Assembly (NCBI GenBank): GCA_041496565.1
Contig: JBGQEW010000001.1
Span: 1 to 53,585, forward strand
Reading direction: 5' to 3'
DNA from: Terriglobia bacterium
Lineage (GTDB): Bacteria; Acidobacteriota; Terriglobia; Acidiferrales; UBA7541
DNA length: 53,585 nucleotides
A program made the translations under genes and the position numbers. This document shows positions 2,933 through 16,800 of this stretch, one piece after another (the first letter of the stretch is position 1; each line of letters starts with the position of its first letter). The notes below the pieces were generated by a model. It was not told where the DNA came from and did no database searches. It worked only from the letters and a program-made list of their open reading frames with translations.

Positions 2933-2933
2933 G

Positions 2934-5621
2934 ATGCGTTCGTACCTAGACCTATCCATCCGTCATAAGCTCCAAGGCATGGTGATCATCGCCTGCGGCG
3001 TTGCCTTGTTCGTGGCATCCACAGCATTCACCATTTACGATCGGACCACTTTCCTCCGTGCAAAAACAGCCGATCTCATTGCCTCCGCGAAAATGATCGG
3101 ATCGAACAGCACCGCGGCGCTTACCTTTCATGATTCCGGATCGGCACGGGAGATCCTAAGCGCGCTGCGAGCCAAGCAGCATGTGATTCATTCCTGTATT
3201 TACGACGCCGATGGCAAAGTCTTCGCGAAGTACAGCCGGGACCCGACCGAACTTGGTTCTTGTCCTCCTCCAGCCCAAGGAGAAGGAAGCACGCTTGTGA
3301 CACGACACATGGTCTTATTCCAGAACATAGTCCTGAATGGTGATTCCATCGGCACGATATACATTGAAGCAGATCTGGGGGACCTTCATGAGCGATTCCT
3401 GCGATTCGTGGTGATTGATTTCGTTGTGTTACTGGGTTCGCTGGCGATTGCATACGTATTGTCTTATCGGCTGCAGCGCGTGATTTCGGAACCGATACGG
3501 GAGCTGGCAGAGACCGCATCGTCGGTCTCCGTCCATGAAAACTATTCGATTCGCGCCACAAAGAGAAGCCAGGACGAAATCGGGGTTTTGTTTGACCAGT
3601 TCAACAGCATGCTCGACCGCATCCAACAGCGGGATGTCGCTATACAGAAAGCGCACGATAATCTCGAGAACAGAGTCGAAGAGCGGACCGCGTATCTCAA
3701 TGCCCTCATCGAAAATAGCCCGCTCGCCATTATGGTGCTGGACTCGGCAGAAAAGATTCAACTATGCAATCCAGCGTTTGAACAGATGTTTCAATATTCC
3801 AAGATAGAATTGATCGGCAAACCGGCCGACGGACTCCTGGCGGATGGGGGCCTCCTCGCGGAAGCACGCAATATTTCCCATGGGACGCTCGGCGGAACAC
3901 CCGTGAATCTGGTGACGCGACGCAAGCGAAAAGACGGGAGCCTGGTGGACGTCGAACTTCACGGTGTGCCCCTGGTCGTGAACGGCCAGGTGGTTGGCTC
4001 GCTGGGCATCTATCAAGACATTTCCGTCCGCAAACGAGCCGAAGAAGCAATGCAGCAAGCGAAAGAAGCGGCGGAAGCTACCAGCCGGGCCAAGAGCGAG
4101 TTCCTTGCCAACATGAGCCATGAAATCCGCACGCCAATGAATGGAATCATGGGAATGACGGAACTCGTTCTCGACACCGAACTCGACTCTGAACAACGCG
4201 AGTACTTGAACATGGCCAAGATGTCCGCCGACTCTTTGCTTTCCCTGATCAATGACATCCTGGATTATTCCAAGATCGAAGCCGGCAAGCTCGAGATCGA
4301 CACGATTGATTTCAATCTCGGAGACACCATTGGCGACACGATGAAAACGCTAAGTCTCCGCGCACATCAAAAGGGACTGGAGCTCGCCTACGATCTTCAG
4401 CCGGACGTTCCCGATGCGCTCATGGGAGACCCAGGACGCTTGAGACAAATCATTGTGAATTTGGTCGGAAACGCCATCAAGTTCACCGAGAGGGGCGAAG
4501 TGATCCTTTACATGCAGACCGAGAGGAGGACGAGTGAGGATATTCAGCTCCATTTCACCGTTTCAGATACCGGGATCGGAATTCCCCCTGAAAAACAGGC
4601 CGCAATCTTTGAAGCCTTTACGCAAGCTGACGGATCCATGAGTCGCACTTACGGCGGCACGGGATTGGGTCTCACCATTTCGTCCCGGCTCGTCGGACTC
4701 ATGCACGGGCGAATTTGGGTGGAAAGTGAGCTCAACAAGGGCAGTCGTTTCCATTTCTCCGCGCAATTTGGACTGCAGAAGGCGCCCGCGAGAACCATTG
4801 TCCCGCGGGATCCGGCGACCTTGCGTGACATGCGAGTGCTCGTCGTGGACGACAACGCGACAAACCGGCAAATCTTGCTCAAAATGCTTGACCACTGGCA
4901 CACAAGGCCTTTGGCCGTGGAAAGCGGCGCGAAGGCAATGACCGCCTTGAGCGAGGCCCAAGGCTTGGGAAGAAATTATCCTCTTATTCTTCTCGATGCC
5001 CAAATGCCCGAAATGGACGGATTCGCGTTGGCTGAATGTATTAAGAGGAACCCAGAATGGGGAGCGGCCACCATCATGATGTTAAGCTCCGCCGGCCAGC
5101 GTGGGGACGCCAAACGCTGCCGTGAATTAGGCGTCGCCGCCTATCTCACCAAGCCCGTTCGGCAGGGAGAATTATTAGACGCCGTTTTGACCGCGTTGGG
5201 GACGAAACCAATAAGAGAAGCTCCGCCTCCCCTGGTTACCCGCCACTCTCTCCGCGAGAATAGCAAGCACCTGCGCATCCTGCTAGTCGAGGATAACGCC
5301 GTGAACCAGATGCTTGCGGTCCGGCTACTGGAGAAACGCGGCCACAAGGTGATTGTGGCAGGGAACGGCAAAGAAGCATTGGCGGCCCTGGAAAAAGACT
5401 CATTCGACCTGGTGCTCATGGACGTTCAAATGCCCGAGATGGACGGCTTCGAAGCGACCGCGGTGATTCGGGAGAAAGAGAAAACGTCCGGGAATCACCT
5501 GCCCGTCATCGCCATGACCGCTCACGCGATGGCAGGAGACAGAGAGCGCTGTCTTGAGGCCGGAATGGATGACTACATCACGAAACCGATTCGGCCGGAG
5601 GAATTGACCGAACTGCTTTGA
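2934..5621 (+). CDS. Hybrid sensor histidine kinase (TM - periplasmic sensor - TM - HAMP - PAS - HisKA - HATPase_c - two receiver domains)
   Basis: ATG at 2934 (residue 24 of ORF 2865-5621) lies 1 nt after the YfiR stop. H-box EFLANMSHEIRTPMNGI. N/G boxes NLVGNAIKFT, DTGIGI, GGTGLGLTIS. Two receivers (VLVVDDNATNRQ...LLDAQMPEMDG and ILLVEDNAVNQ...VLMDVQMPEMDG...TKP). Confidence 0.9.
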   Translation: MRSYLDLSIRHKLQGMVIIACGVALFVASTAFTIYDRTTFLRAKTADLIASAKMIGSNSTAALTFHDSGSAREILSALRAKQHVIHSCIYDADGKVFAKYSRDPTELGSCPPPAQGEGSTLVTRHMVLFQNIVLNGDSIGTIYIEADLGDLHERFLRFVVIDFVVLLGSLAIAYVLSYRLQRVISEPIRELAETASSVSVHENYSIRATKRSQDEIGVLFDQFNSMLDRIQQRDVAIQKAHDNLENRVEERTAYLNALIENSPLAIMVLDSAEKIQLCNPAFEQMFQYSKIELIGKPADGLLADGGLLAEARNISHGTLGGTPVNLVTRRKRKDGSLVDVELHGVPLVVNGQVVGSLGIYQDISVRKRAEEAMQQAKEAAEATSRAKSEFLANMSHEIRTPMNGIMGMTELVLDTELDSEQREYLNMAKMSADSLLSLINDILDYSKIEAGKLEIDTIDFNLGDTIGDTMKTLSLRAHQKGLELAYDLQPDVPDALMGDPGRLRQIIVNLVGNAIKFTERGEVILYMQTERRTSEDIQLHFTVSDTGIGIPPEKQAAIFEAFTQADGSMSRTYGGTGLGLTISSRLVGLMHGRIWVESELNKGSRFHFSAQFGLQKAPARTIVPRDPATLRDMRVLVVDDNATNRQILLKMLDHWHTRPLAVESGAKAMTALSEAQGLGRNYPLILLDAQMPEMDGFALAECIKRNPEWGAATIMMLSSAGQRGDAKRCRELGVAAYLTKPVRQGELLDAVLTALGTKPIREAPPPLVTRHSLRENSKHLRILLVEDNAVNQMLAVRLLEKRGHKVIVAGNGKEALAALEKDSFDLVLMDVQMPEMDGFEATAVIREKEKTSGNHLPVIAMTAHAMAGDRERCLEAGMDDYITKPIRPEELTELL

Positions 5622-5824: not shown

Positions 5825-6634
5825 TCATTTCGCAATGCGCCGCTGTAAGACTTCGAGGATTCCTGTAACGAACATCGCCGGAGTCGGTGGGCAGCCGGGG
5901 ATATATCCGTCCACGGGAATCACCGCGTCCACCGCGCCGACGATTGCGTGGCTACCGGCAAAAATCCCGCCGCTACATCCACAAGCTCCTACGGCGACTA
6001 CCAACTTGGGCGCGGGCACGGCTTCGTACGCAGCCTTGACGGCTTCGGCCATATTGCGTGTGACCGGTCCCGTCACCAAGAGCATGTCGGCATGCTTCGG
6101 AGAGGCCACAAAATGAATGCCAAACCGTTCCAGGTCGTAATACGGGTTCGTGAGAGCGGTGATTTCCGCCTCGCATCCGTTGCAAGAACCGGAATCGAGT
6201 TGACGGATGTTCAACGCCCTTTGCAAAAGAGAGTGAATCTGCATGCGTGCAGCTTCTGGGGACGGGGCACTCAGGGTAATTTCGGTGCGGCCCTCGATAT
6301 CCCAGCGCCGCACCGTCTGTTCTTTTGGCACACCGCACCGGGTGAATTGTTTCGCTGTAACTGCGGCTCCTTCGCCAAATTCAATACACTTGCCGCACCC
6401 AATGCACTCGCCGTAGGAAAGCCTCAGGCAGCTTTGGCCCTCGCGTTCTTCCATGCCAAGCGCCGCCGTGGGGCAGACCTCGACCAGTCTCTGAGCGATC
6501 GCCGGCGTCAAGCGATCCGCGACGATCTCGGGCATGCGGCTGCCGTCGCAGTTCCCCAGCAGAGTTTCTACCGGGATCAATCTGTCCGGCTGGCGCAGAC
6601 TCTGCCCAATCACGTCACCGATCATCGGTCGCAT
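5825..6634 (-). CDS. NuoB/HycG-like [4Fe-4S] small subunit with an N-terminal degenerate ferredoxin-like extension (Ehr/group-4-hydrogenase-like module)
   Basis: Met51 of ORF 5825-6784 (MRPMIGD) overlaps the upstream stop. C-terminal part: DSGSCNGCEAEI...SPKHADMLLVTGPVT...GACGCSGGIF...VDGYIPGCPPTP, the NuoB/HycG cluster-binding pattern. N-terminal part: ...CPTAAL...CIGCGKCIE, one complete and one remnant ferredoxin motif. Confidence 0.8.
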   Translation of the reverse strand: MRPMIGDVIGQSLRQPDRLIPVETLLGNCDGSRMPEIVADRLTPAIAQRLVEVCPTAALGMEEREGQSCLRLSYGECIGCGKCIEFGEGAAVTAKQFTRCGVPKEQTVRRWDIEGRTEITLSAPSPEAARMQIHSLLQRALNIRQLDSGSCNGCEAEITALTNPYYDLERFGIHFVASPKHADMLLVTGPVTRNMAEAVKAAYEAVPAPKLVVAVGACGCSGGIFAGSHAIVGAVDAVIPVDGYIPGCPPTPAMFVTGILEVLQRRIAK

Positions 6635-8115
6635 CCCGAGTACGAAAGATTGAAACTTTTGTTGATCAGCGGAAAATCCGCAATGATGTTGCCCGCCACT
6701 GCCACCGGCATGACGGGCCAATTCTGAAACGACGGAGACTTGATGTGACACCGAGTCAATCGGCCGCCGCGCGCTTCCATCCAATAGCAGAGCTCCCCGC
6801 GGGGCGATTCCACTGCAGAAAATCCTTGGATGTCTCCTGGTGCGGCGAGCGGAGTGAAGACGCTTCCATCCGGAAGGGATCCCGCGGCCTCCTGAATCAA
6901 TTGTGCCGAGATCGCCGCCTCGGCAATGCGAATTTTCGCGCGCGCCATCACGTCTCCGTAATGCGTGACGGGAACCTCGATTTGATGCTGGCGGTAGCGC
7001 CCGTACGGGTGGTCGCGCCGAGCGTCGAGATCGATTCCGCTGGCGCGCGCGACGGGTCCGACGGCCGCGAGGTCCCGCGCGGCTTCCTGGCTCAGTATTC
7101 CCGCCGTTTCAAAACGGTTCTGGATGGAGGGCGTTTCGAGAATCAAACGCGCGACCTCCGAAAATTCACGGTGGGCTCGAGCCACAACTTGCGCGAGTTG
7201 GGCCACCTTGCCGGAATCGAGATCCAATCGCAGACCGCCTGGGACTGCGATACCGCGCCAGTAGCGCGTTCCGCAACACTGCGCTGACTCTCGAAGCAGG
7301 GATTCCTTGAGCCGCGCCGCATAGGCTGCGGGTACGCCGAAACCTACGTCGGTGCACAACCCACCGACGTCCGAGATGTGACAGACAAGCCGCTCGAGCT
7401 CCAGTGCAACCAGGCGGATGGCTGCGGCTCGCGGCGGAGCGTTGATTTCGCAGGCATTTTCCACCGCCTGGGAGTAGCACACCGCGTGGGCGAAGCAGTT
7501 GTCGCCGGAGACCGATTCCGCGAGCATCGCTCCATTCACAAACTGTCTTCCTTCGAAGAGTTTCTCGGTGCCTTTGTGAGTGTAGAAGTGGCGCAACTCG
7601 AGATGCAAAACTGTGTCGCCGACCACGCTGAAGCGGAAATGTCCGGGCTCTATTACGCCTGCGTGAACGGGCCCGACTGCGACTTCTGCGATGCCCTCGC
7701 CTTGAACCTGCAAGAAGCGGTACTCACGCTTCGACCAAGGAACGTCGTCCACCGGATCCATCATCGGGTACACACCGTCGGGCCAGTTATCGTGGAAGAG
7801 CAGTGGTCGCAAATCGGGGTGCCCCACGATCTCGATGCCGTATTGGTCGTGGAGTTCTCTCTCATACCATACGGCTGCCGGCACCTCGGGTGTGATGGAC
7901 CCGAGCGGGCCATCAGCCGGCAGCACGATCTCGCGGTAATCGGGATTTCCGATATCAAAAATGTAATGAACCCGCTTCTCGCGCGTTGGACTCAGGCTTC
8001 CGAAAATGGTGACGAGACGCGCCCGGGCTCCCTCTTTGGTACGCGGAATTGTGGGCATCGTTCCCAAAGGAGTTCTTTCGCTGTGCGGAACCGCTGTTGG
8101 GAGGTTTTCCTTCAT
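6622..8115 (-). CDS. NuoC+NuoD / HycE-like 'large subunit' lacking the canonical [NiFe] cysteine ligands
   Basis: N-terminal NuoC-like part (VWYERELHDQYGIEIVGHPDLRPLLFHDNWPDGVYPM). NuoD/HycE-like part (PVHAGVIEPGHFRFSVVGDTVLHLELRHFYTHKGTEKLFE). The L1 position reads AESVSGDNCFAH and the C-terminus reads INKSFNLSYSGCDR, instead of RxCGxCxxxH and DPCxxCxDR. Confidence 0.85.
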   Translation of the reverse strand: MKENLPTAVPHSERTPLGTMPTIPRTKEGARARLVTIFGSLSPTREKRVHYIFDIGNPDYREIVLPADGPLGSITPEVPAAVWYERELHDQYGIEIVGHPDLRPLLFHDNWPDGVYPMMDPVDDVPWSKREYRFLQVQGEGIAEVAVGPVHAGVIEPGHFRFSVVGDTVLHLELRHFYTHKGTEKLFEGRQFVNGAMLAESVSGDNCFAHAVCYSQAVENACEINAPPRAAAIRLVALELERLVCHISDVGGLCTDVGFGVPAAYAARLKESLLRESAQCCGTRYWRGIAVPGGLRLDLDSGKVAQLAQVVARAHREFSEVARLILETPSIQNRFETAGILSQEAARDLAAVGPVARASGIDLDARRDHPYGRYRQHQIEVPVTHYGDVMARAKIRIAEAAISAQLIQEAAGSLPDGSVFTPLAAPGDIQGFSAVESPRGELCYWMEARGGRLTRCHIKSPSFQNWPVMPVAVAGNIIADFPLINKSFNLSYSGCDR

Positions 8116-9566
8116 CGCAACACCGCCGCCGCCTCCCGCAACAGAACACCGAAAAAGTAAGGAATCCGCGCGCCGAAAAATAACAGGCAGAGAACAGCGA
8201 TCCCCATGGATGTGTACTCGGACGGGATGAGCTTTGCTTTCTCCGCGCGCGGGTCCGGCTCTCCACAGAGCATGCGGAAGAGATGGTGAGCGAATCCGCC
8301 GAACACCAGCGAGAGTACGGCTAGGAAAACAATCGCAACCAGATAGCGCGCCTGCGTGAAGGCTTCGGACAGAATGGCAAACTCGCTGATGAACAGGCTA
8401 AACGGCGGCAAGCCGACAATCGCCAGACTCCCGATGAGCAGGGCGGCGCTCGTTTGCGGCAACGTTCGAGAAATGCCGCTGATTCCATCGATTCGTAACG
8501 TGCCCACATTGTGACGGACGTTACCGGCGCTGAAAAACAAGAGGGACTTTGCTACCGAGTGGTTGAATGTGTGCAGCAGCGCGCCGAAAAACCCCAACGG
8601 CCCTCCCAATCCCAGGCCGATGGCGATGATTCCCATGTGTTCGATGCTGCTATAGGCCATCAGACGTTTCAGGTTCCGTTGCACTAGAATGAGGAGCCCG
8701 GCAACAACCATAGACATCACGCCGAAGATAAGCAGCAGAGCGTGAGGGAAGCCGGGCCCTGCGGCCAGGGAGACAATCGCGTCGTAACGCATCAAGGCGT
8801 ACATGGCGCAGTTGAGCAGGACCGCTGAAAGCAAGGCGCTAATGGGCGTAGGAGCTTCGGCGTGCGCATCTGGCAACCAGCTGTGCATCGGAACGAAACC
8901 GATCTTCGTTCCGTAGCCAACGATGACGAACACGAATGCAAGCTTCAGCAAGTGCGGATCAAGTCCGATGTGAGGCGCGGCATTCATCAGTGAGACCCAA
9001 TCGAGCGCTGCGGCCGAACTCATGCCTGCCTTGACGGCGGCCAGATACAACACAATGGTGCCAAACAACGCGAAGGCGATTCCCACCGTGCACACGATCA
9101 GATACTTCCAGCCGGCCTCGACTGCCCCTTCGGTGTTGTAGAAGCCCACGAGCAAGGCCGAGGCCAGCGTCGTTCCCTCCATCATGATCCACATGAAGCC
9201 GAGGTTTGCTGCCAGGCAGACGCTGATCATGGTGAAAAGGAAGAGAAAGACCAGAGCATAAAACCAGCGCGGCGAGGTGAAACGCCCTTCTCCCATATGG
9301 CGGAAGTAGCCCGAGGCGTAAACCAGCACCAGACCGGAAATGAATGCGATGCCCACCAGAAAAAAAGAGCTCAGGCCATCAGCGCGCAAATATCGGCCTT
9401 CCTGCAGAGCTCCGTACTTGTGGACCTGCCAGACGACCGCGCCGAGCGCGGCAATTTCGAAGCCTCCCAGCACGAGCGCCGCACCCGTGGCGGCACGCAG
9501 GTTCTGGAAGCATAGGACGATGCCGGCCCCGAGAAGCGGGATGGCAAGTGGTAACAGGAGAATCAT
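8112..9566 (-). CDS. HyfF / NuoN(M)-like proton-conducting antiporter-type membrane subunit
   Basis: 484-aa polytopic protein with the antiporter-like core GFVPMHSWLPDAHAEAPTPISALLSAVLLNCAMYALMR and LKRLMAYSSIEHMGIIAIGLG. Its stop overlaps the next gene's start (8112-8115). Confidence 0.85.
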   Translation of the reverse strand: MILLLPLAIPLLGAGIVLCFQNLRAATGAALVLGGFEIAALGAVVWQVHKYGALQEGRYLRADGLSSFFLVGIAFISGLVLVYASGYFRHMGEGRFTSPRWFYALVFLFLFTMISVCLAANLGFMWIMMEGTTLASALLVGFYNTEGAVEAGWKYLIVCTVGIAFALFGTIVLYLAAVKAGMSSAAALDWVSLMNAAPHIGLDPHLLKLAFVFVIVGYGTKIGFVPMHSWLPDAHAEAPTPISALLSAVLLNCAMYALMRYDAIVSLAAGPGFPHALLLIFGVMSMVVAGLLILVQRNLKRLMAYSSIEHMGIIAIGLGLGGPLGFFGALLHTFNHSVAKSLLFFSAGNVRHNVGTLRIDGISGISRTLPQTSAALLIGSLAIVGLPPFSLFISEFAILSEAFTQARYLVAIVFLAVLSLVFGGFAHHLFRMLCGEPDPRAEKAKLIPSEYTSMGIAVLCLLFFGARIPYFFGVLLREAAAVLR

Positions 9567-9569
9567 CTC

Positions 9570-10232
9570 TCAGCCTCGGAGCCTTCGCAGCTTCGACACG
9601 TCTAGATGCTCAAATGTGTCGCTGATGCGAAATGTGAAGACTCCCATCAAGAGCAGTCCAATCAGGATGTCGAAGAAGATTCCGATTTCGATGACCAGCG
9701 GCATACCGAACGTCGTGATCAGCGCGGCCAGAAAAATGCCGTTCTCCAACACGAGCAGCCCGAGGATCTGCATGAGCGTCTTCTTACGGCTGACCATCAG
9801 GAATGCCCCGGTGAGAATCAGGGCGACGGCCGCAGCGAGGGCATCGTCCTGGACGTGCACGGACCCGCCGTAGGAATGCACGGCCGCGTACGACAGATAG
9901 ATCATCGCGGCGACAATAAAGACCGACTGCGTAGGAGTTGTCGAAGCCTTTACATCACGCACAGTTTTCAGCCTCTTGGTCAGGACGAAGAATGCGCGAG
10001 GGATCGCGATCACCTTGATCACTAGGAACAAGACGCCGACTACATATGCCTCCGGAAGCTTTTCCTGAAATGCGGTCGCGAGTACCTCCGCTGTGATGAT
10101 CGCGGATTGCAGGCTGAAGAGAAACACGCTGGTGGAAATTCGACGCGCGACCGCCAGCAGCAGAATCGTGAGAAACAAGAAGACGGAAAACGAACTCAGG
10201 ACTTTTCCGGTCGCCATTCCCACGAAGTCCAT
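9570..10232 (-). CDS. HyfE-like small membrane subunit
   Basis: 220-aa hydrophobic protein. C-terminal half SRKKTLMQILGLLVLENGIFLAALITTFGMPLVIEIGIFFDILIGLLLMG...LRG matches the HyfE/NuoK-like pattern. Confidence 0.7.
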   Translation of the reverse strand: MDFVGMATGKVLSSFSVFLFLTILLLAVARRISTSVFLFSLQSAIITAEVLATAFQEKLPEAYVVGVLFLVIKVIAIPRAFFVLTKRLKTVRDVKASTTPTQSVFIVAAMIYLSYAAVHSYGGSVHVQDDALAAAVALILTGAFLMVSRKKTLMQILGLLVLENGIFLAALITTFGMPLVIEIGIFFDILIGLLLMGVFTFRISDTFEHLDVSKLRRLRG

Positions 10233-10236
10233 TCCG

Positions 10237-11178
10237 CTACCTCTTCGCCAGCGTCGTAAAAATCACCGCCAGCGCGCTCACCGCTGAGGCCACACCCAGA
10301 AAATCCGGGACCAGGTACATCCGCAGCTTGGCTACCGCGCTCTCGATCACGCTCAGCAAGACCATGAGAACGGCCGCCTTCGCGCCATACAGCAGCAAGG
10401 CTGCAGCAAGTCCCCAGCCGGAGCTTCCCGAAGCCATTCCCCAAGGACAGAACAGCGCGATCAGAAAGGCGATCATCGCGTGAAGCTTAATCGCGCTCGC
10501 CCATTCGATCAGCGCCAGGCTGGGCCCCGAATATTCCAGCACCATTCCCTCGTGGATCATCGTCAACTCGAGATGAGTGGTCGGATTATCTACGGGCATG
10601 CGGCCCGTCTCGGCCAAGGTCACCATGCCGAGAGAGGTGAGCGCCAGAATATGTACGGCGGAGATGTTGAAGACACTCTGCTGGAGCGTCCATGCGACCA
10701 TTCCCGCGATGTCGGCGCGGGACGCCAGGATCGCGATCGCCACCAGCCCCAGCAAGAACGGCGCTTCCGCCAAACTCGAGACCAATGCCTCACGGCTCGC
10801 GCCCATCCCCCCGAACGCGCTTCCGCCGTCCAGAGCGCCGAGGGAGAGAAAGAACCGCCCAAAGGCCAATAGATACACAAGCAGAAAAAAATCGCCGCGC
10901 GCCGCCAGCAGCGCCGAAGGATGCAAGACGGGCACAAATGCCGCCACGCAGATCGCGGATCCGAGCAATAGAATCGGCGCAAGGCGAAACACCACCGAGG
11001 ATGTGGGAGGAACTAAGTCTTCCTTGCGGAGGAGTTTGAAGATCTCTGCATAGGGACGCCAGATGCTGGCTCCCCGGCGCCTCTGCAGCCGTGCCTTGAG
11101 CCGCGCGATGATTCCCCCCACCAGCGGAGCTCCCAGAATGAGTAGCAGCGCCTGCAGGATGTCGGCAGCAATTTTCAT
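10237..11178 (-). CDS. HycD / NuoH-like membrane subunit
   Basis: Met253 of ORF 10237-11934 (MKIAADILQALLLILGAPLVGGIIARLKARLQRRRGASIWRPYAEIFKLLRKE) is the typical HycD/NuoH N-terminus. The ATG overlaps the upstream stop as ATGA (11175-11178). The 252-aa upstream extension in the track is Arg/Gly-rich shadow sequence inside the preceding gene. Confidence 0.85.
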   Translation of the reverse strand: MKIAADILQALLLILGAPLVGGIIARLKARLQRRRGASIWRPYAEIFKLLRKEDLVPPTSSVVFRLAPILLLGSAICVAAFVPVLHPSALLAARGDFFLLVYLLAFGRFFLSLGALDGGSAFGGMGASREALVSSLAEAPFLLGLVAIAILASRADIAGMVAWTLQQSVFNISAVHILALTSLGMVTLAETGRMPVDNPTTHLELTMIHEGMVLEYSGPSLALIEWASAIKLHAMIAFLIALFCPWGMASGSSGWGLAAALLLYGAKAAVLMVLLSVIESAVAKLRMYLVPDFLGVASAVSALAVIFTTLAKR

Positions 11179-13163
11179 CTCTGGAACCTCAACAACGCGA
11201 GCAGTGAAACCAGTGCGAGAAAGATGTAAAGCAGATAGACCTGTATGTTTCCCGTCTGCAATCGGCGCACCTGGTGCGCCAGCGAAACAACGAGCTCCAC
11301 AAAGGGCCGATAGAGCGCCCGTTCGTAGGAGGTGGTGCGCACCGACCGATATGAGATGGATACGGGGCAATAGGGCTGATCGGCGGGTAGCCGCTCGACT
11401 TTGCGATCGGGCCGGTAAACTTGGGCGAAGACAAAACGGATCGGTTTCGAGAAAGCTGTGGATGTGTATTGCATGCGACTGGAAAGCTCCGGAAGACCGC
11501 ACGCCCATGTCCGCACCGCTCTCTCCCCGCGCTTGAACAAGGCGACTATCGTGCAGATTCCCAGGATTGCCGCTGCGATCCAGGGGATGATCCGGGTGAT
11601 GCTTAGGATCTCCTCCGGCAGGCCGGCGCCGGGAATCAGCGTTTGGACCAGCGATGCGAGTGGCCACAAGAGAATCCCGGGCAAGATTCCAATGAGCAAG
11701 CAGGCTGCCGCCAGCAGAGTCATCCCGCTGCGCATGAGTATCGGCACCTCCACAGCATGCGCCGCCTCCGCGCTGCGGGGGCGGCCCAAGAAGGCCACAC
11801 CGAACACCTTTACAAAGCACGCCGCCGCCAACCCGCCAATCAGCGCGAGGACCCCGACCATCAACGGCAAGGCAATCTGAGCTTTCGTATTTGTCAGCAC
11901 CGAGCCGGCCAGGAAACTTCGAAACGTGAGCCACTCACTGATGAAGCCATTGAACAGAGGCAGCCCAACGATCGAGCAGCAACCGATCAGGAAGGCCGTT
12001 CCGGTAACCGGCATCCGACGCTGTAACCCGCCAAGCTCCTCCAAATCCACAGTGTGCGTTGCGGTCGAAATGGCACCCGCACCGAGAAAGAGCAGGCTCT
12101 TGAAGAGGGCGTGATTGAAAGTGTGTAAGAGAGCTGCAATAAGCGCCAAAGTCGCCCAAACGGGCGCATGATTGGCGAGAAAAAGCAACGACGTTCCGAG
12201 TCCCAAATAGATAATCCCGATGTTCTCCACGCTGTGATAGGCCAACAACCGCTTAAGATCGTGTTCGGCGATTGCGTACAAAACACCCAGCAGTCCGGAA
12301 GCGGCTCCAGCCAAGAGAACAACGTATCCAGACCAAGGTGGTCCTCCGCCGAGAAAATCAAAGGCAAAGCGCACAAATCCGTACACGGCCGTCTTCAACA
12401 TGATCCCCGACATCAGCGCGGAAACGGGGCTCGGCGCGATGGGGTGTGCCCGGGGCAACCACAAATGCAGCGGGATCAGACCGGCCTTGGCTCCGAATCC
12501 CACGAATGCTGCTACGAAGATGGCAGTCCGAATCCCGCCCGGTATCGCCGCGCTTGCCGCGCGAATGGCTCCAAAATCCAAACTGTGCGAATAGGGCAGG
12601 AAAAGAAAGAAACACGCCGCAACGGCGGCCGCCCCCACATGCATCATCAACAAGTAGATGAAGACATTGTGACGCCGCTCCGGCGAGCCCCCTTCGATTA
12701 AGATGAGAGCGGCGGACACAAGCGTCATCAATTCCCAGCCCGCCAGAAACGCAAAGCCGGTAGACGCCGTGACGACCACGATCATCGAAAGAAGAAACAG
12801 TGAAAGGAACGCCCACGTCCAGTGGCGGCGCTGCCCGGCGTAGTGGAGGTCGAAATACGGGACAGCGAAAATCGTGACCGGAACCGCCACCGCGCAGACC
12901 AACAGCAGGAAAAACGCACTGAGACGGTCGACGGCCAGCGAGAAAGAGAAGGGCGTCACCCAGGATAGATCGAGCAGAGGGGCTGGCTGTCGCAAGAAAC
13001 TGGAGACGGCCACTAGACAGCCCGCCGCGCTGGCGGCGAGAATCAGTGCGACGGCGAGCCTTCGCCAGCCCTTCGCGCGGCCTGCGATCAGAAGGAGAGG
13101 AACGAAGACTCCCAGGGTGCTTAACAGAAAGACGAACGCAGCGCCAGTGTATGCCATTCGCAT
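11175..13163 (-). CDS. HyfB / NuoL-like proton-conducting antiporter-type membrane subunit
   Basis: 662-aa polytopic protein. Contains GWELMTLVSAALI, GAKAGLIPLHLWLPRAHPIAPSPVSALMSGIMLKTAVYGFVRF, LKRLLAYHSVENIGIIYLGLG. Confidence 0.85.
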   Translation of the reverse strand: MRMAYTGAAFVFLLSTLGVFVPLLLIAGRAKGWRRLAVALILAASAAGCLVAVSSFLRQPAPLLDLSWVTPFSFSLAVDRLSAFFLLLVCAVAVPVTIFAVPYFDLHYAGQRRHWTWAFLSLFLLSMIVVVTASTGFAFLAGWELMTLVSAALILIEGGSPERRHNVFIYLLMMHVGAAAVAACFFLFLPYSHSLDFGAIRAASAAIPGGIRTAIFVAAFVGFGAKAGLIPLHLWLPRAHPIAPSPVSALMSGIMLKTAVYGFVRFAFDFLGGGPPWSGYVVLLAGAASGLLGVLYAIAEHDLKRLLAYHSVENIGIIYLGLGTSLLFLANHAPVWATLALIAALLHTFNHALFKSLLFLGAGAISTATHTVDLEELGGLQRRMPVTGTAFLIGCCSIVGLPLFNGFISEWLTFRSFLAGSVLTNTKAQIALPLMVGVLALIGGLAAACFVKVFGVAFLGRPRSAEAAHAVEVPILMRSGMTLLAAACLLIGILPGILLWPLASLVQTLIPGAGLPEEILSITRIIPWIAAAILGICTIVALFKRGERAVRTWACGLPELSSRMQYTSTAFSKPIRFVFAQVYRPDRKVERLPADQPYCPVSISYRSVRTTSYERALYRPFVELVVSLAHQVRRLQTGNIQVYLLYIFLALVSLLALLRFQR

Positions 13164-13167
13164 GCGG

Positions 13168-13518
13168 CTATTTCCAGCGCCGTCCTTCCTTCATTTCCTC
13201 CAACATTTCCCGCACGCCCACCAGGTGATTGTTAAAGATTTCCTTTGCCGCATCCAGCAGTTTGAAAAGAGATGGGTCGGAAATCGAATAGAAGACACTC
13301 GATCCGGACTTCCTTCCCTTTACGATGTTCCGAACCCGCAGCACCGCCAACTGCTGAGAAACGTTCGCCGGTTCGAGCTCAAGCATCTCGCTTAATTCCT
13401 TTACGCCCTTTTCGCCGCCCCGAAGGCAATCCAAAATGCGGATGCGGATCGGATGTGCGAGTGCCTTGAAGAATTCGGCCTTGAAGTTGGCAAGTTGCTG
13501 AAGCATGCGAATGTTCAA
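13168..13518 (-). CDS. ArsR/SmtB-family winged-helix transcriptional regulator, first gene of the Ehr-like operon
   Basis: FFKALAHPIRIRILDCLRGGEKGVKELSEMLELEPANVSQQLAVLRVRNIVKGRKSGSSVFYSI is the ArsR HTH signature. The track start at 13518 is TTG. An in-frame ATG (MLQQL) lies at 13506. The gene ends 5 nt before the HyfB-like gene. Confidence 0.85.
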   Translation of the reverse strand: MNIRMLQQLANFKAEFFKALAHPIRIRILDCLRGGEKGVKELSEMLELEPANVSQQLAVLRVRNIVKGRKSGSSVFYSISDPSLFKLLDAAKEIFNNHLVGVREMLEEMKEGRRWK

Positions 13519-13573
13519 TTATTCAAATATGCTAGACTACATAAAGGATGTTGTCAACACTGGCAGGACCATT

Positions 13574-13800: not shown

Positions 13801-16800
13801 ATGATTGGCCAGACAATTTCGCACTATCGCGTCACCGCAAAGCTGGGCGGTGGCGGGATGGGCGTGTTGTACAAGGCGGAAGACGCGACGCTCGGGCGCG
13901 ACGTCGCGCTTAAATTCATGCCCAGCGACGTGGCCAATGATGCGCAGGCGCTGGAGCGCTTCCGCCGCGAAGCGCGCGCCGCCTCTGCGCTGAACCATCC
14001 GGGCATCTGCACCATCTACGAAATCGGCGAGCATGCCGGGCAGCCGTTCATCGCCATGGAGTTTCTCGAAGGCAACACGCTCAAGCACTTGATTCAGTCC
14101 GAGCGTTTTGAGCTGGAAGTGCTGCTCGATGCGGCCATTCAGATTTCCGACGCGCTGGATGCCGCGCACTCCAAGGGCATCATTCATCGCGACATCAAGC
14201 CTGCCAACCTCTTCCTGACCAGCCGCGGCCAAGCCAAGATTCTCGACTTCGGGCTGGCGAAACAAAGTCCCGGCAAGGGCGCGATGGCAGGGAATGCTGG
14301 CCTTTCCGCGCAAGTGACGGCGGGGTTGAGCGAAGAGCATCTCACCAGTCCGGGCACGGCCATCGGCACGGTCGCCTACATGTCGCCGGAGCAAGCGCTC
14401 GGCAAGCCGCTCGATGCGCGCACAGATCTTTTTTCCTTCGGCGTAGTGCTCTATGAAATGGCCGCCGGCGTGCAGCCGTTTCGCGGAGAAACGTCCGCGG
14501 CCATATTTGATTTCATCCTGCGCCGCACACCGGTCTCGCCGGTGCGCTTGAATCCCGACCTGCCATCGAAACTGGTGGACATCATCAACAAGTTGCTGGA
14601 GAAGGATCCGCGGATGCGCTATCAGCATGCCTCCGATCTCCGCGCGGACTTGCAGCGCCTGAAGCGCGACACCGATTCGGGACGCTCCGCCATTGCGGAG
14701 GCGGCAGAACCCGGCGCGTTCGACGCGCGCAGCGCCGGCCCCAGCGCCGCCGCGGCTGAGGAACTTTCGGTCGCCGTCCTTCCGTTCAAGAACGCTAGCG
14801 GGGATCCCGAGCTTGAAGCGCTGGCCGACGGCCTCACCGAAGACGTGAGCACGGGCTTGTCCCGCTTCTCTTATCTGCACGTGATTTCCCGCGATTCAGC
14901 AATTCCGCCTAAATCCAGATCGGCGGACTCGCACTCGGAGGGGAAATACTCTGGCGCGCGCTACGTGATGGAAAGCGCCGTGCGCAAGTCAGGATCGAAC
15001 GTGCGCATCAGCTCGCGCATCGTGGATACCGCGAGCGGCGAACATCTTTGGGCGGAGAATTACGACCGGGACTTGAAGGCCACCAGCCTGTTCGAGCTGC
15101 AGGACGACGTGACTGCAAAGATCGTTTCGACAGTCGGGGATTGCTACGGCGCGCTCCCTCGGGCCATGGCGGCAGTAGTCAGGCGCAAGCCGAGCGAACA
15201 CGCGACGCCATATGAAGCCGTGCTTCGACAGCTCAACTTCTGGCAGCAGGTTTCTCCTGAGGAGCATGCCATCGTCCGCGCCGGCCTGGAGCGCGCGGTC
15301 GAGCAGGCGCCGGACTATGCCGACGGATGGGCTTCTCTCGCGCTGGTGTATCTGGAAGAGCACTCGCACAGCTTCAATGTACGTCCGGATCCCCTCGGGC
15401 GTGCTGCCGCCGCCACGGCCAAAGCTCTTGCGCTCAACCCGGCCAGCCAGATTGCTTACTACAGTCTCGCGGAGACGCGCTTTTTCCAGAAAGATTTCCA
15501 GGCCTTTCGCCAGGCCGCCGAGCGGGCCGTGGCCCTGAACCCGTTGGATGGCAACACCAAGGCGCTGATGGGAAATCTGACCGCCTATTCGGGGGATTGG
15601 GACCGTGGGTTGGCTCTGGCAGACGAGGCTTTGACGCTCAATCCGCATCATCCGGGGTGGTACCGCTTTGTAAAATTCTGGGGGCACTATCGCAAACATG
15701 AATATCAAGAGGCCCTCACCATTGCGCGCATGATCAACATGCCGGGGAACTTCTACTACCATTCAACGCTAGCTTGCGTCTTAGGGCAGCTTGGCCGCAC
15801 CGAAGAGGCGCAGAGGTCGGTTCAAGAGCTATTGAAGATTTATCCCGATTTTCCCGCCAAGGCGCGCGCGGAGCTGGGCAAATGGCTGGAACCGGACTTG
15901 GTTGAGCAGTTCATCGAGGGCTTGCGCAAGGCCGGGATCGAACTCCCGGAGTTGGACGGTGCGTCGGCCCATCTGTCCTACGCGCCGGTCGCTGCGCCGG
16001 TTGACACGGCCTCAGGGGAAGTGCGTTCCGAGCGGACGGAGTCCGATAGCGGGCGCGCTCGCGCGCAGGGACTGTGGATTGCCGTCCTGCCGTTCACGCA
16101 CTCCGGCGCCGACGCCGAACTGGAATCGTTTGCGGTCGGACTGGCGGAGGACATCAACGCGGGTCTGGCGCGGTTTGCCTATCTTTCCGTTATCGCACGG
16201 AATTCTACCGCCCGTTTCAAGGGACAATCCGAGGATGTGCGCGCTGTAGGAGAGCAATTGGGCGCTCGCTACGTGCTGGAAGGCGGGATTCGCAAAGGCG
16301 CCTCCACGATCCGCATCAACATGCAATTGATCGACACCCAGACCGGCTCGCACTTGTGGGCAGAAACCTACAACCGCAACCTGAAGGATTCCGACATTTT
16401 CTCGGTACAGGACGACATCACGGACCGCGTGGTGGCCACCGTTGCGGACACTAACGGAGTGCTGCTGCGCTCGATGGCTGCCAGCGTGGAAGAAAAACCC
16501 GAAGGCGAGCTGACCGCTGCGGACTGGGTGCTGCGGTACTACAGCTACCGGCAACGCTTAACGCCCGAAGAACACGCCAGGCTCCGCGAAGGCCTTGAGC
16601 GCTTTGTGGAGCGCGGGTCCAGGGATGCGGTCGTGTGGGCCTGCCTCTCGCAACTGTATAGCGATGAATTCAGATTCCGGTTTAACCGGCGCCCGAATGC
16701 GCTGGACCGTGCGCTCGCGGCGTCACGCCGCTCCGTCGACCTCGACCGCACCTGCCAGAACGGACACCAGACCCTTGCGCAAGTCCATTTTTTTCGCCGC

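What the first reader, a model, noticed from the sequence alone, without database searches (positions are those of the whole stretch)
5825..13518. ArsR-led six-gene complex-I / group-4-hydrogenase-like membrane module whose catalytic subunit has no [NiFe] ligands (Ehr-type, function unknown)
The minus-strand unit is ArsR, HyfB/NuoL-like, HycD/NuoH-like, HyfE-like, HyfF/NuoN-like, a NuoC+NuoD/HycE-like fusion, and a ferredoxin remnant fused to NuoB/HycG. Junctions are ATGA overlaps or gaps of 5 nt or less (11175-11178, 8112-8115, 6622-6634), so it looks like one translationally coupled operon.

The large subunit keeps the family fold signature (GHFRFSVVGDTVLHLELRHFYTHKG). However, the L1 site reads SVSGDNCFAH where hydrogenases have RxCGxCxxxH. 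The C-terminus reads NLSYSGCDR where they have DPCxxCxDR. The small subunit retains all four Cys of the proximal [4Fe-4S] cluster.

No hyp/hyc maturation genes, formate dehydrogenase, CO dehydrogenase or NuoEFG-type input module is present in the window. This matches the 'energy-converting hydrogenase-related' (Ehr, six-subunit ABCDLS-type) class proposed from comparative genomics as an intermediate between group 4 hydrogenases and complex I. As far as I know, its substrate and physiological role have never been established.
Basis: partly seen in the sequence, partly recalled or inferred. Interest (0 to 1): 0.75.

Follow-up and report, generated by a model that had tools for sequence, protein, structure and literature searches.

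The report
Nickel-free hydrogenase-like membrane complex (Ehr)
This is an ordinary, well-conserved member of the already named "Ehr" family, a six-protein membrane complex that looks like an energy-converting hydrogenase but has lost the nickel-iron site; it has the same regulator-plus-six-gene layout as the Rv0081-Rv0087 operon of Mycobacterium tuberculosis, and its substrate is still unknown.

Summary
Window 5825-13518 (minus strand) holds seven tightly packed genes: an ArsR-type regulator, then HyfB-, HycD-, HyfE-, HyfF- and HycE-like proteins, then a ferredoxin-NuoB fusion.

- **Active site.** Aligned to E. coli HycE in register, all four [NiFe] cysteines are gone (RVCGICGFAH becomes SVSGDNCFAH; DPCYSCTDR becomes NLSYSGCDR).
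- **Iron-sulfur clusters.** The four Cys of the proximal [4Fe-4S] cluster are kept, with hydrogenase-type CxxC spacing.
- **Classification.** The "Ehr" reading is supported. In a rough tree the large subunit sits in a single clade of Cys-less sequences, next to CxxC-bearing hydrogenases. The same six-gene order occurs in an Aquicultor (Actinobacteria-related) contig, a Thermoplasmatota archaeon and a Deltaproteobacteria MAG.
- **Closest studied relative.** Every protein, including the regulator, has a one-to-one best match in M. tuberculosis Rv0081-Rv0087.
- **Refinements.** The "ferredoxin remnant" is a HycF/NuoI-like domain that keeps exactly the medial-cluster ligands. Two lineage-specific Cys sit one residue after the lost bridging Cys. 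dN/dS is 0.05-0.2, so the genes are not decaying.

Most likely function (inferred): an ion-translocating oxidoreductase that is not a hydrogenase, with an unknown acceptor.

Novelty: new member of a known kind. Interest is moderate to low.

The parts
13529..13557 (-). Sigma-70-type promoter-like site: TTGACA (13557-13552), 17 nt, TAGCAT (13534-13529)
   Evidence: The consensus scan gives 10 of 12 matches. Both hexamers are conserved in 15 related loci, while sequence further upstream cannot be aligned. Function is inferred, not shown.
13506..13527 (-). Operator-like imperfect palindrome TTTGAATA-N6-CATTCGCA between the -10 hexamer and the regulator's ATG
   Evidence: Conserved block in 15 loci; in several of them it is a perfect TGCGAATA-N6-TATTCGCA. 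Rv0081 is reported to autorepress through an inverted repeat upstream of its operon. Binding here is inferred.
13168..13518 (-). ArsR/SmtB-family regulator of the Rv0081 type (116 aa from TTG 13518; more likely 112 aa from ATG 13506)
   Evidence: - Pfam HTH_5 and NCBIfam NF033788.
- The best solved-structure match is M. tuberculosis Rv0081, 6jmi, E = 1.1e-18; BLASTP identity to Rv0081 is 46%.
- Three of the four alpha-5 metal-site positions are non-ligands, and only one Cys sits in the alpha-3 box. This was read from the alignment against the residues named.
11175..13163 (-). EhrA: HyfB/HycC/NuoL-like antiporter-type subunit, 662 aa
   Evidence: - NCBIfam hydrogenase-4 subunit B, E = 8e-185.
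- Best PDB match is HycC, 7z0s_C, E = 9e-66, aligned through the C-terminal WACG... segment.
- The TM5 Glu, TM7 Lys, TM8 Lys, TM11 Lys and TM12 Glu are all present.
10237..11178 (-). EhrB: HycD/NuoH-like membrane anchor, 313 aa (ATG 11178; the listed 565-aa GTG ORF is an upstream read-through artefact)
   Evidence: - Pfam NADHdh, E = 3e-39.
- PDB matches at E <= 1e-5 are only HycD (1e-42), MbhM (2e-26) and MbsM (1e-14); no complex I NuoH/ND1 chain matches.
- The acidic TM5-6 loop ...ELTMIHEGMVLEYSG is retained.
9570..10232 (-). EhrC: HyfE-like membrane subunit, 220 aa, with a NuoK/MrpC-like C-terminal half
   Evidence: - NCBIfam hydrogenase-4 membrane subunit, E = 9e-25, below that model's cut-off.
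- Weak Pfam Oxidored_q2 match over residues 132-219.
- No significant solved-structure relative by sequence.
8112..9566 (-). EhrD: HyfF/NuoM/N-like antiporter-type subunit, 484 aa
   Evidence: - NCBIfam hydrogenase-4 subunit F, E = 2e-130; best PDB match MbhH, E = 9e-43.
- The TM5 Glu, TM7 Lys, TM11 Lys and TM12 Glu are present.
- The TM8 Lys is replaced by Asn, or by Ala/Ser/Thr in other Ehr operons.
6622..8115 (-). EhrL: NuoC + NuoD/HycE-like large subunit, 497 aa, lacking all four [NiFe] Cys and ending exactly at ...CDR with no C-terminal extension
   Evidence: - HycE 7z0s_E, E = 1.5e-75, with an in-register alignment of both motifs.
- Across 130 representatives, the positions where both groups are well conserved yet differ are C491S, C494G and A461P. 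The two L1 Cys (203, 206) are also absent, with Ser in 71% of Ehr-type sequences at 203 and no consensus at 206.
- C207 and C495 are conserved in 116 of 117 close relatives but not in other Ehr lineages.
5825..6625 (-). EhrS: fusion of a degenerate HycF/NuoI-like ferredoxin domain (one cluster-ligand set kept) to a NuoB/HycG-like domain, 266 aa
   Evidence: - Oxidored_q6, E = 9e-33, plus weak Fer4_7; MbhJ and HycG matches at E ~ 1e-38.
- Invariant Cys are C54(P), C77, C80 and C83, plus proximal-cluster C151, C154, C218 and C248 (269-aa numbering).
- Other Ehr small subunits keep all eight ferredoxin Cys, and Mtb Rv0082 has no such domain.
- The N-terminal domain is modelled at pLDDT 83-95, and its best fold match is HycF 7z0s_F (probability 1.00, E = 2e-3).

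Best explanation
**What it is (well supported).** An Ehr (Ech/energy-converting-hydrogenase-related) operon, ehrA-B-C-D-L-S, co-transcribed behind its own Rv0081-type ArsR repressor. It is the Acidobacteriota (Candidatus Acidiferrales) counterpart of M. tuberculosis Rv0081-Rv0087.

**How it most likely works (inferred).** It is not a hydrogenase.
1. A low-potential soluble donor, most likely a ferredoxin-type carrier, reduces the single [4Fe-4S] cluster kept in the HycF-like domain of EhrS.
2. The electron passes to the four-Cys proximal [4Fe-4S] cluster of the NuoB-like domain.
3. From there it reaches an acceptor bound in the chamber formed by EhrL, EhrS and the HycD-like anchor EhrB. The acceptor is unidentified; the membrane quinone pool is the leading candidate.
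4. Redox and protonation changes in that chamber are passed to the two antiporter-like subunits EhrA and EhrD, which move H+ or Na+. Three conserved loops would carry the signal: the EhrL beta1-beta2 loop GPVHAGVIEPGHF, the acidic EhrB TM5-6 loop, and the EhrA C-terminal segment.
5. The reaction may also run in reverse.

**Regulation (inferred).** The regulator probably represses the operon through the palindrome between the -10 hexamer and its own ATG, and responds to a non-metal signal.

**My confidence.** Identity as Ehr about 0.9. Redox-driven ion pump about 0.4. Quinone as acceptor about 0.2.
For: **Identity**
- Family assignments agree across libraries.
- The in-register loss of all four [NiFe] Cys is seen against HycE and in 94 of 130 representative relatives.
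- Those Cys-less sequences form one clade in a rough NJ tree.
- The same six-gene order with a ferredoxin-NuoB fusion occurs in four distant loci.
- There are 1:1 best matches to Rv0081-Rv0087 at 28-51% identity.
- The regulator's best solved relative is Rv0081.
- The literature uses the name Ehr for exactly this architecture.

**The genes are functional, not a relic**
- dN/dS is 0.05-0.21 for all genes tested.
- The cassette is intact in 24 or more genomes, while the flanking genes differ.

**Electron path**
- The kept ligand set, CP + CxxCxxC, matches the medial-cluster ligand pattern reported for MbsN (C71, C96, C99, C102).
- All four proximal-cluster Cys are invariant.
- The N-terminal domain folds like HycF.

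**Coupling machinery**
- The hydrogenase scaffold residues are almost all retained, including E156 of the beta1-beta2 loop.
- The HycD-type acidic loop is retained.
- The TM5 Glu, TM7 Lys, TM11 Lys and TM12 Glu are present in both antiporter-like subunits.
- The three-loop coupling model comes from the MBH, MBS and complex I structures.

**Regulation**
- The promoter and palindrome are conserved across 15 loci.
- Rv0081 autorepresses through an inverted repeat and lacks metal sites.
Against: - No acceptor is identified.
- The complex I quinone-site hallmarks are missing. At the positions of T. thermophilus Nqo4 Tyr87 and His38 this protein has Gly and Ile (alignment; residue roles from my own knowledge).
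- The proximal cluster has hydrogenase-type CNGC rather than the tandem CC of complex I and NDH.
- EhrB matches only hydrogenase and MBS anchors in the PDB, not NuoH.
- Some Ehr-bearing lineages (Riflemargulisbacteria) are reported to lack quinone biosynthesis.
- The Mtb version has no ferredoxin domain at all, so electron entry through that domain cannot be universal.
- The TM8 Lys is missing in EhrD family-wide, and in EhrA of Mtb.
- No donor or partner gene is conserved next to the operon.
- No experiment on any Ehr complex was found in the papers searched.
Confidence: 0.55

Rival explanations
1. A redox-sensing, or purely structural, Mrp-like cation/proton antiporter. The hydrogenase-derived arm no longer turns over a substrate. 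Its FeS cluster(s) only gate or stabilise ion exchange by EhrA/EhrD, for example in response to the cell's ferredoxin or NAD(P)H redox state.
For: - No acceptor site or partner dehydrogenase can be found.
- The cluster chain shrinks across lineages, from three clusters (Aquicultor, Thermoplasmatota) to two (this window) to one (Mtb). That is easier to tolerate for a sensor than for a wire.
- Universal stress protein genes flank the operon in two distant loci, and the Mtb operon is described as hypoxia-regulated.
- The antiporter-type residues are largely kept.
Against: - The whole hydrogenase scaffold is retained, including the proton-relay Glu and nearly every conserved Arg, Asp and His around the former active site. 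It is under purifying selection (dN/dS 0.13-0.21 for EhrL).
- That is more conservation than a mere lid would seem to need.
- Known Mrp antiporters work without such an arm.
Confidence: 0.17
2. A reductase of a small, non-quinone substrate (protons, polysulfide, or another small molecule). Catalysis would occur at the proximal [4Fe-4S] cluster, as proposed for MBS. Alternatively, in this lineage, it would occur at a new site built from the two repositioned Cys (C207, C495) with the conserved Ser/Asp of the former [NiFe] pocket.
For: - MBS shows that a hydrogenase-derived complex without a [NiFe] site can reduce polysulfide at its proximal cluster.
- C207, C495 and C456 are conserved in 116-117 of 117 close relatives, while several other Cys vary.
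- Ser at both former terminal-Cys positions and Asp205 are widespread in the Ehr clade.
- Geobacter Ehr subunits are more abundant on formate.
Against: - The proximal cluster here has the full four-Cys, MBH-type CxxC coordination. It aligns without a gap to MbhJ, unlike the shortened three-Cys motif of MBS.
- The two Cys kept in MBS were shown not to be catalytic.
- C207 and C495 are absent from most Ehr lineages, including Mtb, and show no covariation.
- Ehr expression was not increased by H2 in N. moscoviensis.
Confidence: 0.12
3. A genuine formate hydrogenlyase or hydrogenase-4-type [NiFe] hydrogenase, as the JGI annotation ('Ni,Fe-hydrogenase III large subunit') and the older Mtb literature imply.
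For: Closest solved structure is E. coli FHL for four of the six subunits and for the ferredoxin-like half of the small subunit by fold; its NuoB-like half matches MbhJ and HycG about equally. The subunits score against hydrogenase-4 models.
Against: - All four metal-ligating Cys are replaced in an ungapped alignment.
- There is no C-terminal extension for endopeptidase processing (sequence).
- There is no hyp, hycI, fdhF or hycB gene in 53 kb.
- HydDB lists Ehr among homologues that do not metabolise H2.
Confidence: 0.02
4. Simply the organism's respiratory complex I (nuo operon), as the NCBI annotation ('NADH-quinone oxidoreductase subunit C/NuoB') implies. Alternatively, a decaying remnant with no function.
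For: Pfam complex I domains are found in all subunits. A 2026 Geobacter paper calls Ehr non-functional and under relaxed selection.
Against: - There are six genes rather than 11-14, with no NuoA, J, E, F or G and no separate NuoI.
- The proximal cluster has CxxC, not CC.
- NuoD scores are far below the model cut-offs (218 bits against 360).
- EhrB does not match NuoH in the PDB.
- Against decay: dN/dS is 0.05-0.21, with intact reading frames in 24 or more genomes.
Confidence: 0.03

Closest known systems
M. tuberculosis Rv0081-Rv0087 operon ('hyc' or predicted formate hydrogenlyase locus, called an EHR complex in PMC6728331)
   Same: - An ArsR-family regulator leads six genes.
- Every window protein has its best match in one Mtb gene: Rv0081 46%, Rv0083 42%, Rv0084 41%, Rv0085 28%, Rv0086 37%, Rv0087 41%, Rv0082 51%.
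- Protein sizes are nearly identical (662/640, 313/316, 220/220, 484/488, 497/491 aa).
- The large subunit has SGD in L1 and SY(A/S)G in L2.
- The regulator lacks metal sites and autoregulates through an inverted repeat.
   Different: - In Mtb the small subunit comes first in the operon and has no ferredoxin domain.
- Mtb has Ser, Asn and Ala where this lineage has C207, C495 and C456.
- The TM8 Lys of the EhrA homologue is Asn in Mtb.
- The Mtb regulator has no Cys, whereas this one has one.
- Mtb adds Rv0088 and DosR/MprA control.
Geobacter sulfurreducens Ehr complex (EhrA-1, B, C, D, L, S; GSU0739-0745), the name-giving example (Coppi 2005), and the broader Ehr class of Marreiros et al. 2013
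   Same: - The same six subunit types are described: NuoL-like, HyfE-like, a large and a small subunit, and others.
- It lacks the [NiFe] binding centre.
- Its physiological role has not been investigated.
   Different: The Geobacter subunits respond to formate; nothing comparable is known for Acidobacteriota.
E. coli formate hydrogenlyase and hydrogenase-4 (group 4a [NiFe] hydrogenases; PDB 7Z0S)
   Same: - FHL is the closest solved structure for HycE (1.5e-75), HycC (9e-66), HycD (1e-42) and, by fold, HycF; for the NuoB-like half of the small subunit HycG (3e-38) and P. furiosus MbhJ (2e-38) score about equally.
- It shares the CxxC proximal-cluster motif, the beta1-beta2 loop with Glu, and the acidic HycD loop.
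   Different: - No [NiFe] Cys and no C-terminal processing tail.
- No HycB/FdhF input module and no HyfD.
- HycF is fused to HycG and reduced to one cluster.
- HyfE- and HyfF-like subunits are present, as in Hyf rather than Hyc.
Respiratory complex I / NDH-1
   Same: Modular L-shaped design: NuoB, C, D and H plus antiporter-like homologues, and the charged residues of the antiporter-like subunits.
   Different: - No tandem CC at the proximal cluster.
- No Tyr/His quinone ligands in the NuoD homologue.
- No NuoA, J, E, F or G and no separate NuoI or NuoK.
- All NCBIfam Nuo scores are below cut-off except the generic NuoB subfamily model.
[quoted passage not shown]
   Same: A hydrogenase-derived, ion-translocating complex that no longer makes H2. 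It retains a few Cys in the former [NiFe] pocket.
   Different: - MBS has 13 subunits with a full Mrp module and a separate two-cluster MbsN.
- Its proximal cluster has three Cys because of a shortened motif.
- Its two retained Cys are at canonical [NiFe] positions.
- Here the proximal motif is full length and the two Cys are each shifted by one residue.
- Sequence similarity is much lower than to FHL.

Membership tests
Ehr (Ech/energy-converting-hydrogenase-related) complex | A gene cluster encoding homologues of group 4 hydrogenase large and small subunits together with NuoH/HycD-like and antiporter-like membrane subunits | tested here: met
   Pfam and NCBIfam assignments for all six proteins; PDB best matches to FHL and MBH subunits.
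Ehr (Ech/energy-converting-hydrogenase-related) complex | The large subunit lacks the Cys of both CxxC motifs (L1 RxCGxCxxxH, L2 DPCxxCxxH/R) that bind the [NiFe] centre | tested here: met
   In an ungapped alignment to HycE, C->S, C->N, C->S and C->G. The same pattern is seen in 94 of 130 representative relatives.
Ehr (Ech/energy-converting-hydrogenase-related) complex | Six-subunit A-B-C-D-L-S composition and order | tested here: met
   Window order is HyfB-, HycD-, HyfE-, HyfF-like, then L, then S. The order is identical in the two distant loci recovered complete (L035, L036); L033 has it with EhrB split into two ORFs, and L034 is cut upstream of EhrB. Subunit names are as in Geobacter.
Ehr (Ech/energy-converting-hydrogenase-related) complex | Phylogenetic placement of the large subunit with other Cys-less sequences rather than inside a hydrogenase subgroup | tested here: met
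   In an NJ tree of 130 representatives, the Cys-less sequences form one clade next to the CxxC-bearing group. The window groups with P0132 and P0123 (Aquicultor). The tree is rough: BLOSUM62 distances, no support values.
Ehr (Ech/energy-converting-hydrogenase-related) complex | No H2 metabolism, and no dependence on Hyp maturation proteins | not testable with these tools
   No hyp genes in the 53.6-kb window. The rest of the genome could not be searched, and no activity data exist.
Group 4 [NiFe] hydrogenase (FHL/Hyf/Ech/Mbh) | Four Cys in the L1 and L2 motifs ligating Ni and Fe | tested here: not met
   All four are absent. Cys are present only one residue after each second position, and only in this lineage.
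Group 4 [NiFe] hydrogenase (FHL/Hyf/Ech/Mbh) | Proximal [4Fe-4S] cluster bound by four Cys with CxxC spacing in the small subunit | tested here: met
   CNGC...GAC...GCPP aligns without gaps to MbhJ and HycG. These Cys are invariant in 26 relatives.
Respiratory complex I (Nuo / NDH-1) | Tandem Cys-Cys at cluster N2 in NuoB, and Tyr/His quinone ligands in NuoD | tested here: not met
   The motif is CNGC, not CC. At the positions of Nqo4 Tyr87 and His38 the alignment has Gly and Ile. The residue roles come from my own knowledge of the T. thermophilus structure.
Respiratory complex I (Nuo / NDH-1) | Eleven to fourteen core subunits, including NuoA, J, K and I (and E, F, G) | tested here: not met
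   Only six structural genes, and none of the missing subunits appears elsewhere in the window. EhrB does not match NuoH/ND1 chains at E <= 1e-5.
MBS-type sulfane sulfur reductase | Shortened proximal-cluster motif giving three-Cys coordination, a separate two-cluster MbsN, and a full Mrp module | tested here: not met
   The proximal motif is full length (against the description). The ferredoxin domain is fused and holds a single cluster-ligand set. There are no MrpB/E/F/G-like genes.
Rv0081-type (non-metal-sensing) ArsR/SmtB regulator | Winged-helix ArsR fold without alpha-3 or alpha-5 metal sites, encoded first in an Ehr operon, and autoregulating through an upstream inverted repeat | tested here: inconclusive
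   - Best PDB match is Rv0081.
- At the alpha-5 positions (Rv0081 A79, D81, V92, R95) this protein reads D, S, I, N, and the alpha-3 box holds a single Cys.
- It is first in the operon.
- A conserved palindrome lies at the promoter.
- DNA binding and the inducing signal were not tested.

The most novel reading that the evidence does not exclude
In the Acidiferrales lineage the empty [NiFe] pocket may have been rebuilt into a new redox-active site. Two near-invariant Cys (C207 and C495) each sit one residue after a lost bridging Cys. With the family-wide Ser203, Asp205 and Ser491 and the retained proton-relay Glu156, they could form a thiol/disulfide or mononuclear-metal centre. That centre would be fed by a shortened two-cluster wire and would give this Ehr a chemistry not seen in hydrogenases, MBS or complex I.
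Probability: 0.08. Interest if true: 0.6.

Novelty: new member of a known kind. Interest (0 to 1): 0.3.

Why it matters
- **An orphan machine.** Ehr complexes are widespread complex-I-like assemblies. They occur in Acidobacteriota, Nitrospirales, ammonia-oxidising archaea, Geobacter and M. tuberculosis, and no substrate is known for any of them.
- **Annotation risk.** Databases label these genes either "Ni,Fe-hydrogenase III" or "NADH-quinone oxidoreductase". Surveys of soil H2 metabolism or respiration can therefore miscount them.
- **What this instance adds.** It brings comparative clues rather than a discovery.
  - The Rv0081-type regulator travels with the operon in at least three lineages (Acidobacteriota, the Aquicultor contig and Mycobacterium).
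  - The FeS wire varies from three clusters to one.
  - The pocket keeps the hydrogenase proton-relay scaffold.
- **Use.** These points could guide experiments in tractable hosts such as Mycobacterium and Geobacter.

Tried and rejected
- **Literature.** The first query on "Ehr" returned only electronic-health-record papers.
- **Neighbouring kinases.** I tested whether the divergent Ser/Thr kinase or the convergent hybrid histidine kinase belongs to the unit. Neither is conserved next to the operon in 29 related loci.
- **Partner genes.** I clustered all flanking ORFs of those loci to look for a conserved donor or partner. Only the operon's own genes and their shadow ORFs recur.
- **Insertions behind the regulator.** Where ArsR lies 1-2.5 kb upstream of ehrA, the only insert I could recognise (in two of the four loci checked) is a small ORF whose sequence looks HTH-like by eye; no large ORF of the size of a redox partner is present, and none of the inserts was scanned against a domain library.
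- **Cys covariation.** I looked for covariation between C207 and C495. The two exceptions are different sequences, so there is no signal.
- **dN/dS artefact.** For the small subunit against L003 and L004 the values were nonsensical, from my own coordinate or frame handling. Only the L001 value (0.095) is used.
- **Structure model.** In the small-subunit model the NuoB-like half has pLDDT below 50. Only the N-terminal domain is interpretable, and no coordinates are returned, so pocket geometry could not be examined.
- **EhrC.** It has no significant relative among solved structures.
- **RNA.** Rfam and tRNA scans found nothing in or near the operon.
- **Whole-genome checks.** The single scan of genome collections was used to fetch related loci. 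Because of that, hyp, nuo and menaquinone genes could not be sought in the complete related chromosome.

Full report
**1. What is in the sequence**

On the minus strand of window 5825-13518 there are seven ORFs:
- an ArsR-family regulator (13168-13518);
- a 662-aa HyfB/HycC/NuoL-like protein (11175-13163);
- a 313-aa HycD/NuoH-like protein (10237-11178);
- a 220-aa HyfE-like protein (9570-10232);
- a 484-aa HyfF/NuoM-like protein (8112-9566);
- a 497-aa NuoC+NuoD/HycE-like protein (6622-8115);
- a ferredoxin-NuoB/HycG fusion (5825-6625).

Three junctions are ATGA overlaps and the other three are gaps of 3-4 nt. The listed 565-aa GTG ORF at 10237-11934 is only an in-frame upstream extension of the HycD-like gene. 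Gene callers start the small subunit at the ATGA overlap, giving 266 aa.

The window is Acidobacteriota. The closest loci are MAGs labelled Terriglobia or Candidatus Acidiferrales.

**2. The active-site claim**

The best solved relative of the large subunit is E. coli HycE (7z0s_E, E = 1.5e-75). T. thermophilus Nqo4 (7.5e-39) and P. furiosus MbhL (2.2e-35) follow.

Both metal-binding motifs align without gaps:
- HycE R-V-C-G-I-C-G-F-A-H against S-V-S-G-D-N-C-F-A-H;
- HycE D-P-C-Y-S-C-T-D-R against N-L-S-Y-S-G-C-D-R.

So all four [NiFe] ligands are replaced (Ser, Asn, Ser, Gly). A Cys sits one residue after each former second Cys. The protein ends exactly at ...CDR, with no tail for endopeptidase processing.

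The small subunit keeps the four proximal-cluster Cys as CNGC...GAC...GCPP. It aligns gap-free to MbhJ and HycG, and these Cys are invariant in 26 relatives.

No hyp/hyc maturation, formate dehydrogenase, CO dehydrogenase or NuoEFG gene was found among 37 other ORFs of the window.

**3. Family context**

A search of 1.84 billion cluster representatives found 993 proteins at E <= 1e-30.
- The window's own 50%-identity cluster (P0048, 77% identity) is followed by a gap down to 46% identity or less.
- I aligned 130 near-full-length representatives. Of these, 94 lack the Cys at both first positions and 24 have all four.
- The two groups share almost the whole set of conserved scaffold residues. 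These include the GPxHxGxxEPGHF loop with its Glu, and the conserved Arg, Asp and His positions.
- Positions that are well conserved in both groups yet differ are C491S, C494G and A461P. The two L1 Cys are also lost: position 203 is Ser in 71% of Ehr-type sequences and position 206 has no consensus.
- In a rough neighbour-joining tree rooted on HycE-like sequences, the Cys-less sequences form one clade next to the CxxC-bearing group. The window groups with P0132 and P0123, an Aquicultor sequence.

This is what the literature calls Ehr: related to group 4 hydrogenases but lacking the Ni/Fe ligands. HydDB lists Ehr among homologues that do not metabolise H2.

**4. The operon architecture is general, and the ArsR lead is already known**

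Across 29 related Acidobacteriota loci the six structural genes are syntenic. The regulator lies directly upstream in most of them. The flanking genes are not conserved.

More distant loci show the same pattern:
- Three loci with a large subunit 42-46% identical to this one (an Aquicultor contig, a Thermoplasmatota archaeon and a Deltaproteobacteria MAG) have the same order, as does L035, a metagenome contig of unknown taxon.
- All four have a ferredoxin-NuoB fusion as the last gene.
- The Aquicultor locus also has an HTH_5 regulator in front.

The regulator's best solved relative is M. tuberculosis Rv0081 (6jmi, E = 1.1e-18). I fetched the M. tuberculosis-complex locus (L030). Each of the seven window proteins has its best match in one gene of Rv0081-Rv0087, at 28-51% identity and with nearly identical lengths. 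Rv0087 reads SGDTS and SYAGN at the two motifs. That operon has been explicitly called an EHR complex of undetermined function.

**5. Refinements to the anatomy**

(a) *The "ferredoxin remnant".* It is a HycF/NuoI-type domain.
- Other Ehr small subunits carry the full CxxCxxCxxxCP ... CxxCxxCxxxC pattern.
- In the window only the CP Cys of the first motif and the first three Cys of the second remain, and all four are invariant.
- That is exactly the ligand set of the medial cluster in MbsN (C71, C96, C99, C102).
- So the distal cluster was lost and the cluster next to the proximal one was kept.
- The domain is modelled with pLDDT 83-95, and its best fold match is HycF (7z0s_F, probability 1.00, E = 2e-3).
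- Mtb Rv0082 has lost the whole domain.

(b) *Lineage-specific Cys.* C207, C495 and C456 are conserved in 116-117 of 117 close relatives, while other Cys vary. They are absent from most other Ehr lineages and show no covariation.

(c) *Membrane subunits.*
- EhrA matches HycC through its C-terminal segment.
- EhrB matches only HycD, MbhM and MbsM among solved structures, not complex I NuoH. It keeps the acidic TM5-6 loop.
- Both antiporter-like subunits keep the TM5 Glu, TM7 Lys, TM11 Lys and TM12 Glu.
- The TM8 Lys is present in EhrA but replaced family-wide in EhrD.

(d) *Selection.* dN/dS is 0.05-0.21 for every gene tested. This contradicts the idea that Ehr genes are drifting relics.

(e) *Promoter and operator.*
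- A TTGACA-17-TAGCAT promoter-like site is followed by an imperfect palindrome, TTTGAATA-N6-CATTCGCA.
- Both are conserved in 15 loci, while sequence further upstream is not alignable.
- This fits the reported autorepression of Rv0081 through an inverted repeat.
- The regulator lacks three of the four alpha-5 metal ligands and has a single Cys in the alpha-3 box.

**6. Mechanism**

*Shown:*
- the parts list;
- loss of the [NiFe] ligands;
- retention of two cluster-ligand sets;
- the hydrogenase-type pocket scaffold;
- most of the antiporter charge residues;
- purifying selection.

*Inferred:*
- Electrons from a low-potential soluble donor enter at the medial-type cluster and pass to the proximal cluster.
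- They then reach an unidentified acceptor in the EhrL/EhrS/EhrB chamber.
- Coupling runs through the three-loop system described for MBH, MBS and complex I to ion translocation by EhrA and EhrD, possibly reversibly.

Quinone is the obvious candidate acceptor, but the complex I hallmarks are absent:
- the tandem CC at the proximal cluster;
- the Tyr/His ligands of NuoD (alignment; residue roles from my own knowledge);
- a NuoH-type anchor.

Some Ehr-bearing lineages are also reported to lack quinone synthesis.

The rivals are these.
- A redox-gated or non-catalytic Mrp-like antiporter. The shrinking cluster chain across lineages favours it.
- A small-substrate reductase at the proximal cluster or at the new Cys pair. 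MBS is the precedent, but the four-Cys proximal cluster and the non-catalytic Cys of MBS count against it.
- A true hydrogenase, or the cell's complex I. Both fail their defining features.

**7. Verdict**

However, this is a typical member of a family that has been named since 2005 and 2013 and is routinely noted in genome papers. The ArsR-led layout is that of the Mtb operon.

Papers in the library still describe the function as unknown in 2025 and 2026. The open question is therefore genuine, but this uncultured-organism instance does not make it newly testable.

Novelty: new member of a known kind. Interest: 0.3.

Noticed in passing
L031 7507-10724 (Logan SRR7851365, M. tuberculosis-complex contig): The Rv0084 homologue is cut to 74 aa. 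Rv0085-Rv0087 are missing, and Rv0088 follows directly. This looks like a natural deletion of most of the Ehr operon in one strain, which would mean the complex is dispensable there.
   Followed up: no
L034 5944-9991 and L035 12287-14447: In the Thermoplasmatota MAG a universal stress protein gene and a second partial EhrA-B-C set follow the first operon. Usp genes also flank the operon in L035. This may be a stress or hypoxia association like that of the Mtb locus.
   Followed up: no
window 13801-17910 (+): A 1369-aa Ser/Thr protein kinase followed by three repeats of a TolB_N/LpoB-like plus TPR module, transcribed divergently from the ArsR promoter. Rv0081 is reported to be Ser-phosphorylated in hypoxia. 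However, this adjacency is not conserved in related loci.
   Followed up: partly
window 870-5621 (+): A TonB-dependent receptor, a YfiR/HmsC-like protein and a 918-aa hybrid histidine kinase with two receiver domains. They are convergent with the 3' end of the operon and are not conserved next to it elsewhere.
   Followed up: partly
window 26495-40370: An arginine biosynthesis cluster (ArgJ, argininosuccinate lyase and synthase, OTCase, acetylornithine aminotransferase, acetylglutamate kinase, semialdehyde dehydrogenase, ArgR). It is followed by an ammonium transporter and a GlnD-like uridylyltransferase.
   Followed up: no
window 43174-49288 (+): A ResIII-type helicase (906 aa) and an N6/N4 DNA methylase (877 aa), probably a restriction-modification pair. 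A tRNA-Val gene lies just downstream at 49337-49413.
   Followed up: no
window 52235-53535 (-): Two adjacent BcrAD/BadFG-family ATPase genes (activators of 2-hydroxyacyl-CoA dehydratase or benzoyl-CoA-reductase type enzymes, which use low-potential electrons). They lie 39 kb from the operon and no link was examined.
   Followed up: no
database annotations of P0001-P0120, P0276-P0374: The large subunit family is labelled 'Ni,Fe-hydrogenase III large subunit' by JGI and 'NADH-quinone oxidoreductase subunit C' by NCBI. Rv0081-family regulators are labelled 'lsr2/espR transcriptional regulator' by NCBI. All three labels are misleading.
   Followed up: no
L008, L013, L019, L024 between the ArsR gene and ehrA: In some Acidiferrales genomes 1-2.5 kb are inserted between the regulator and ehrA. 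In L008 and L013 the insert includes a small ORF of about 105-117 aa with the sequence ...AVADYYT..QLA.K.GISEA.IAELE..., which looks HTH-like.
   Followed up: partly
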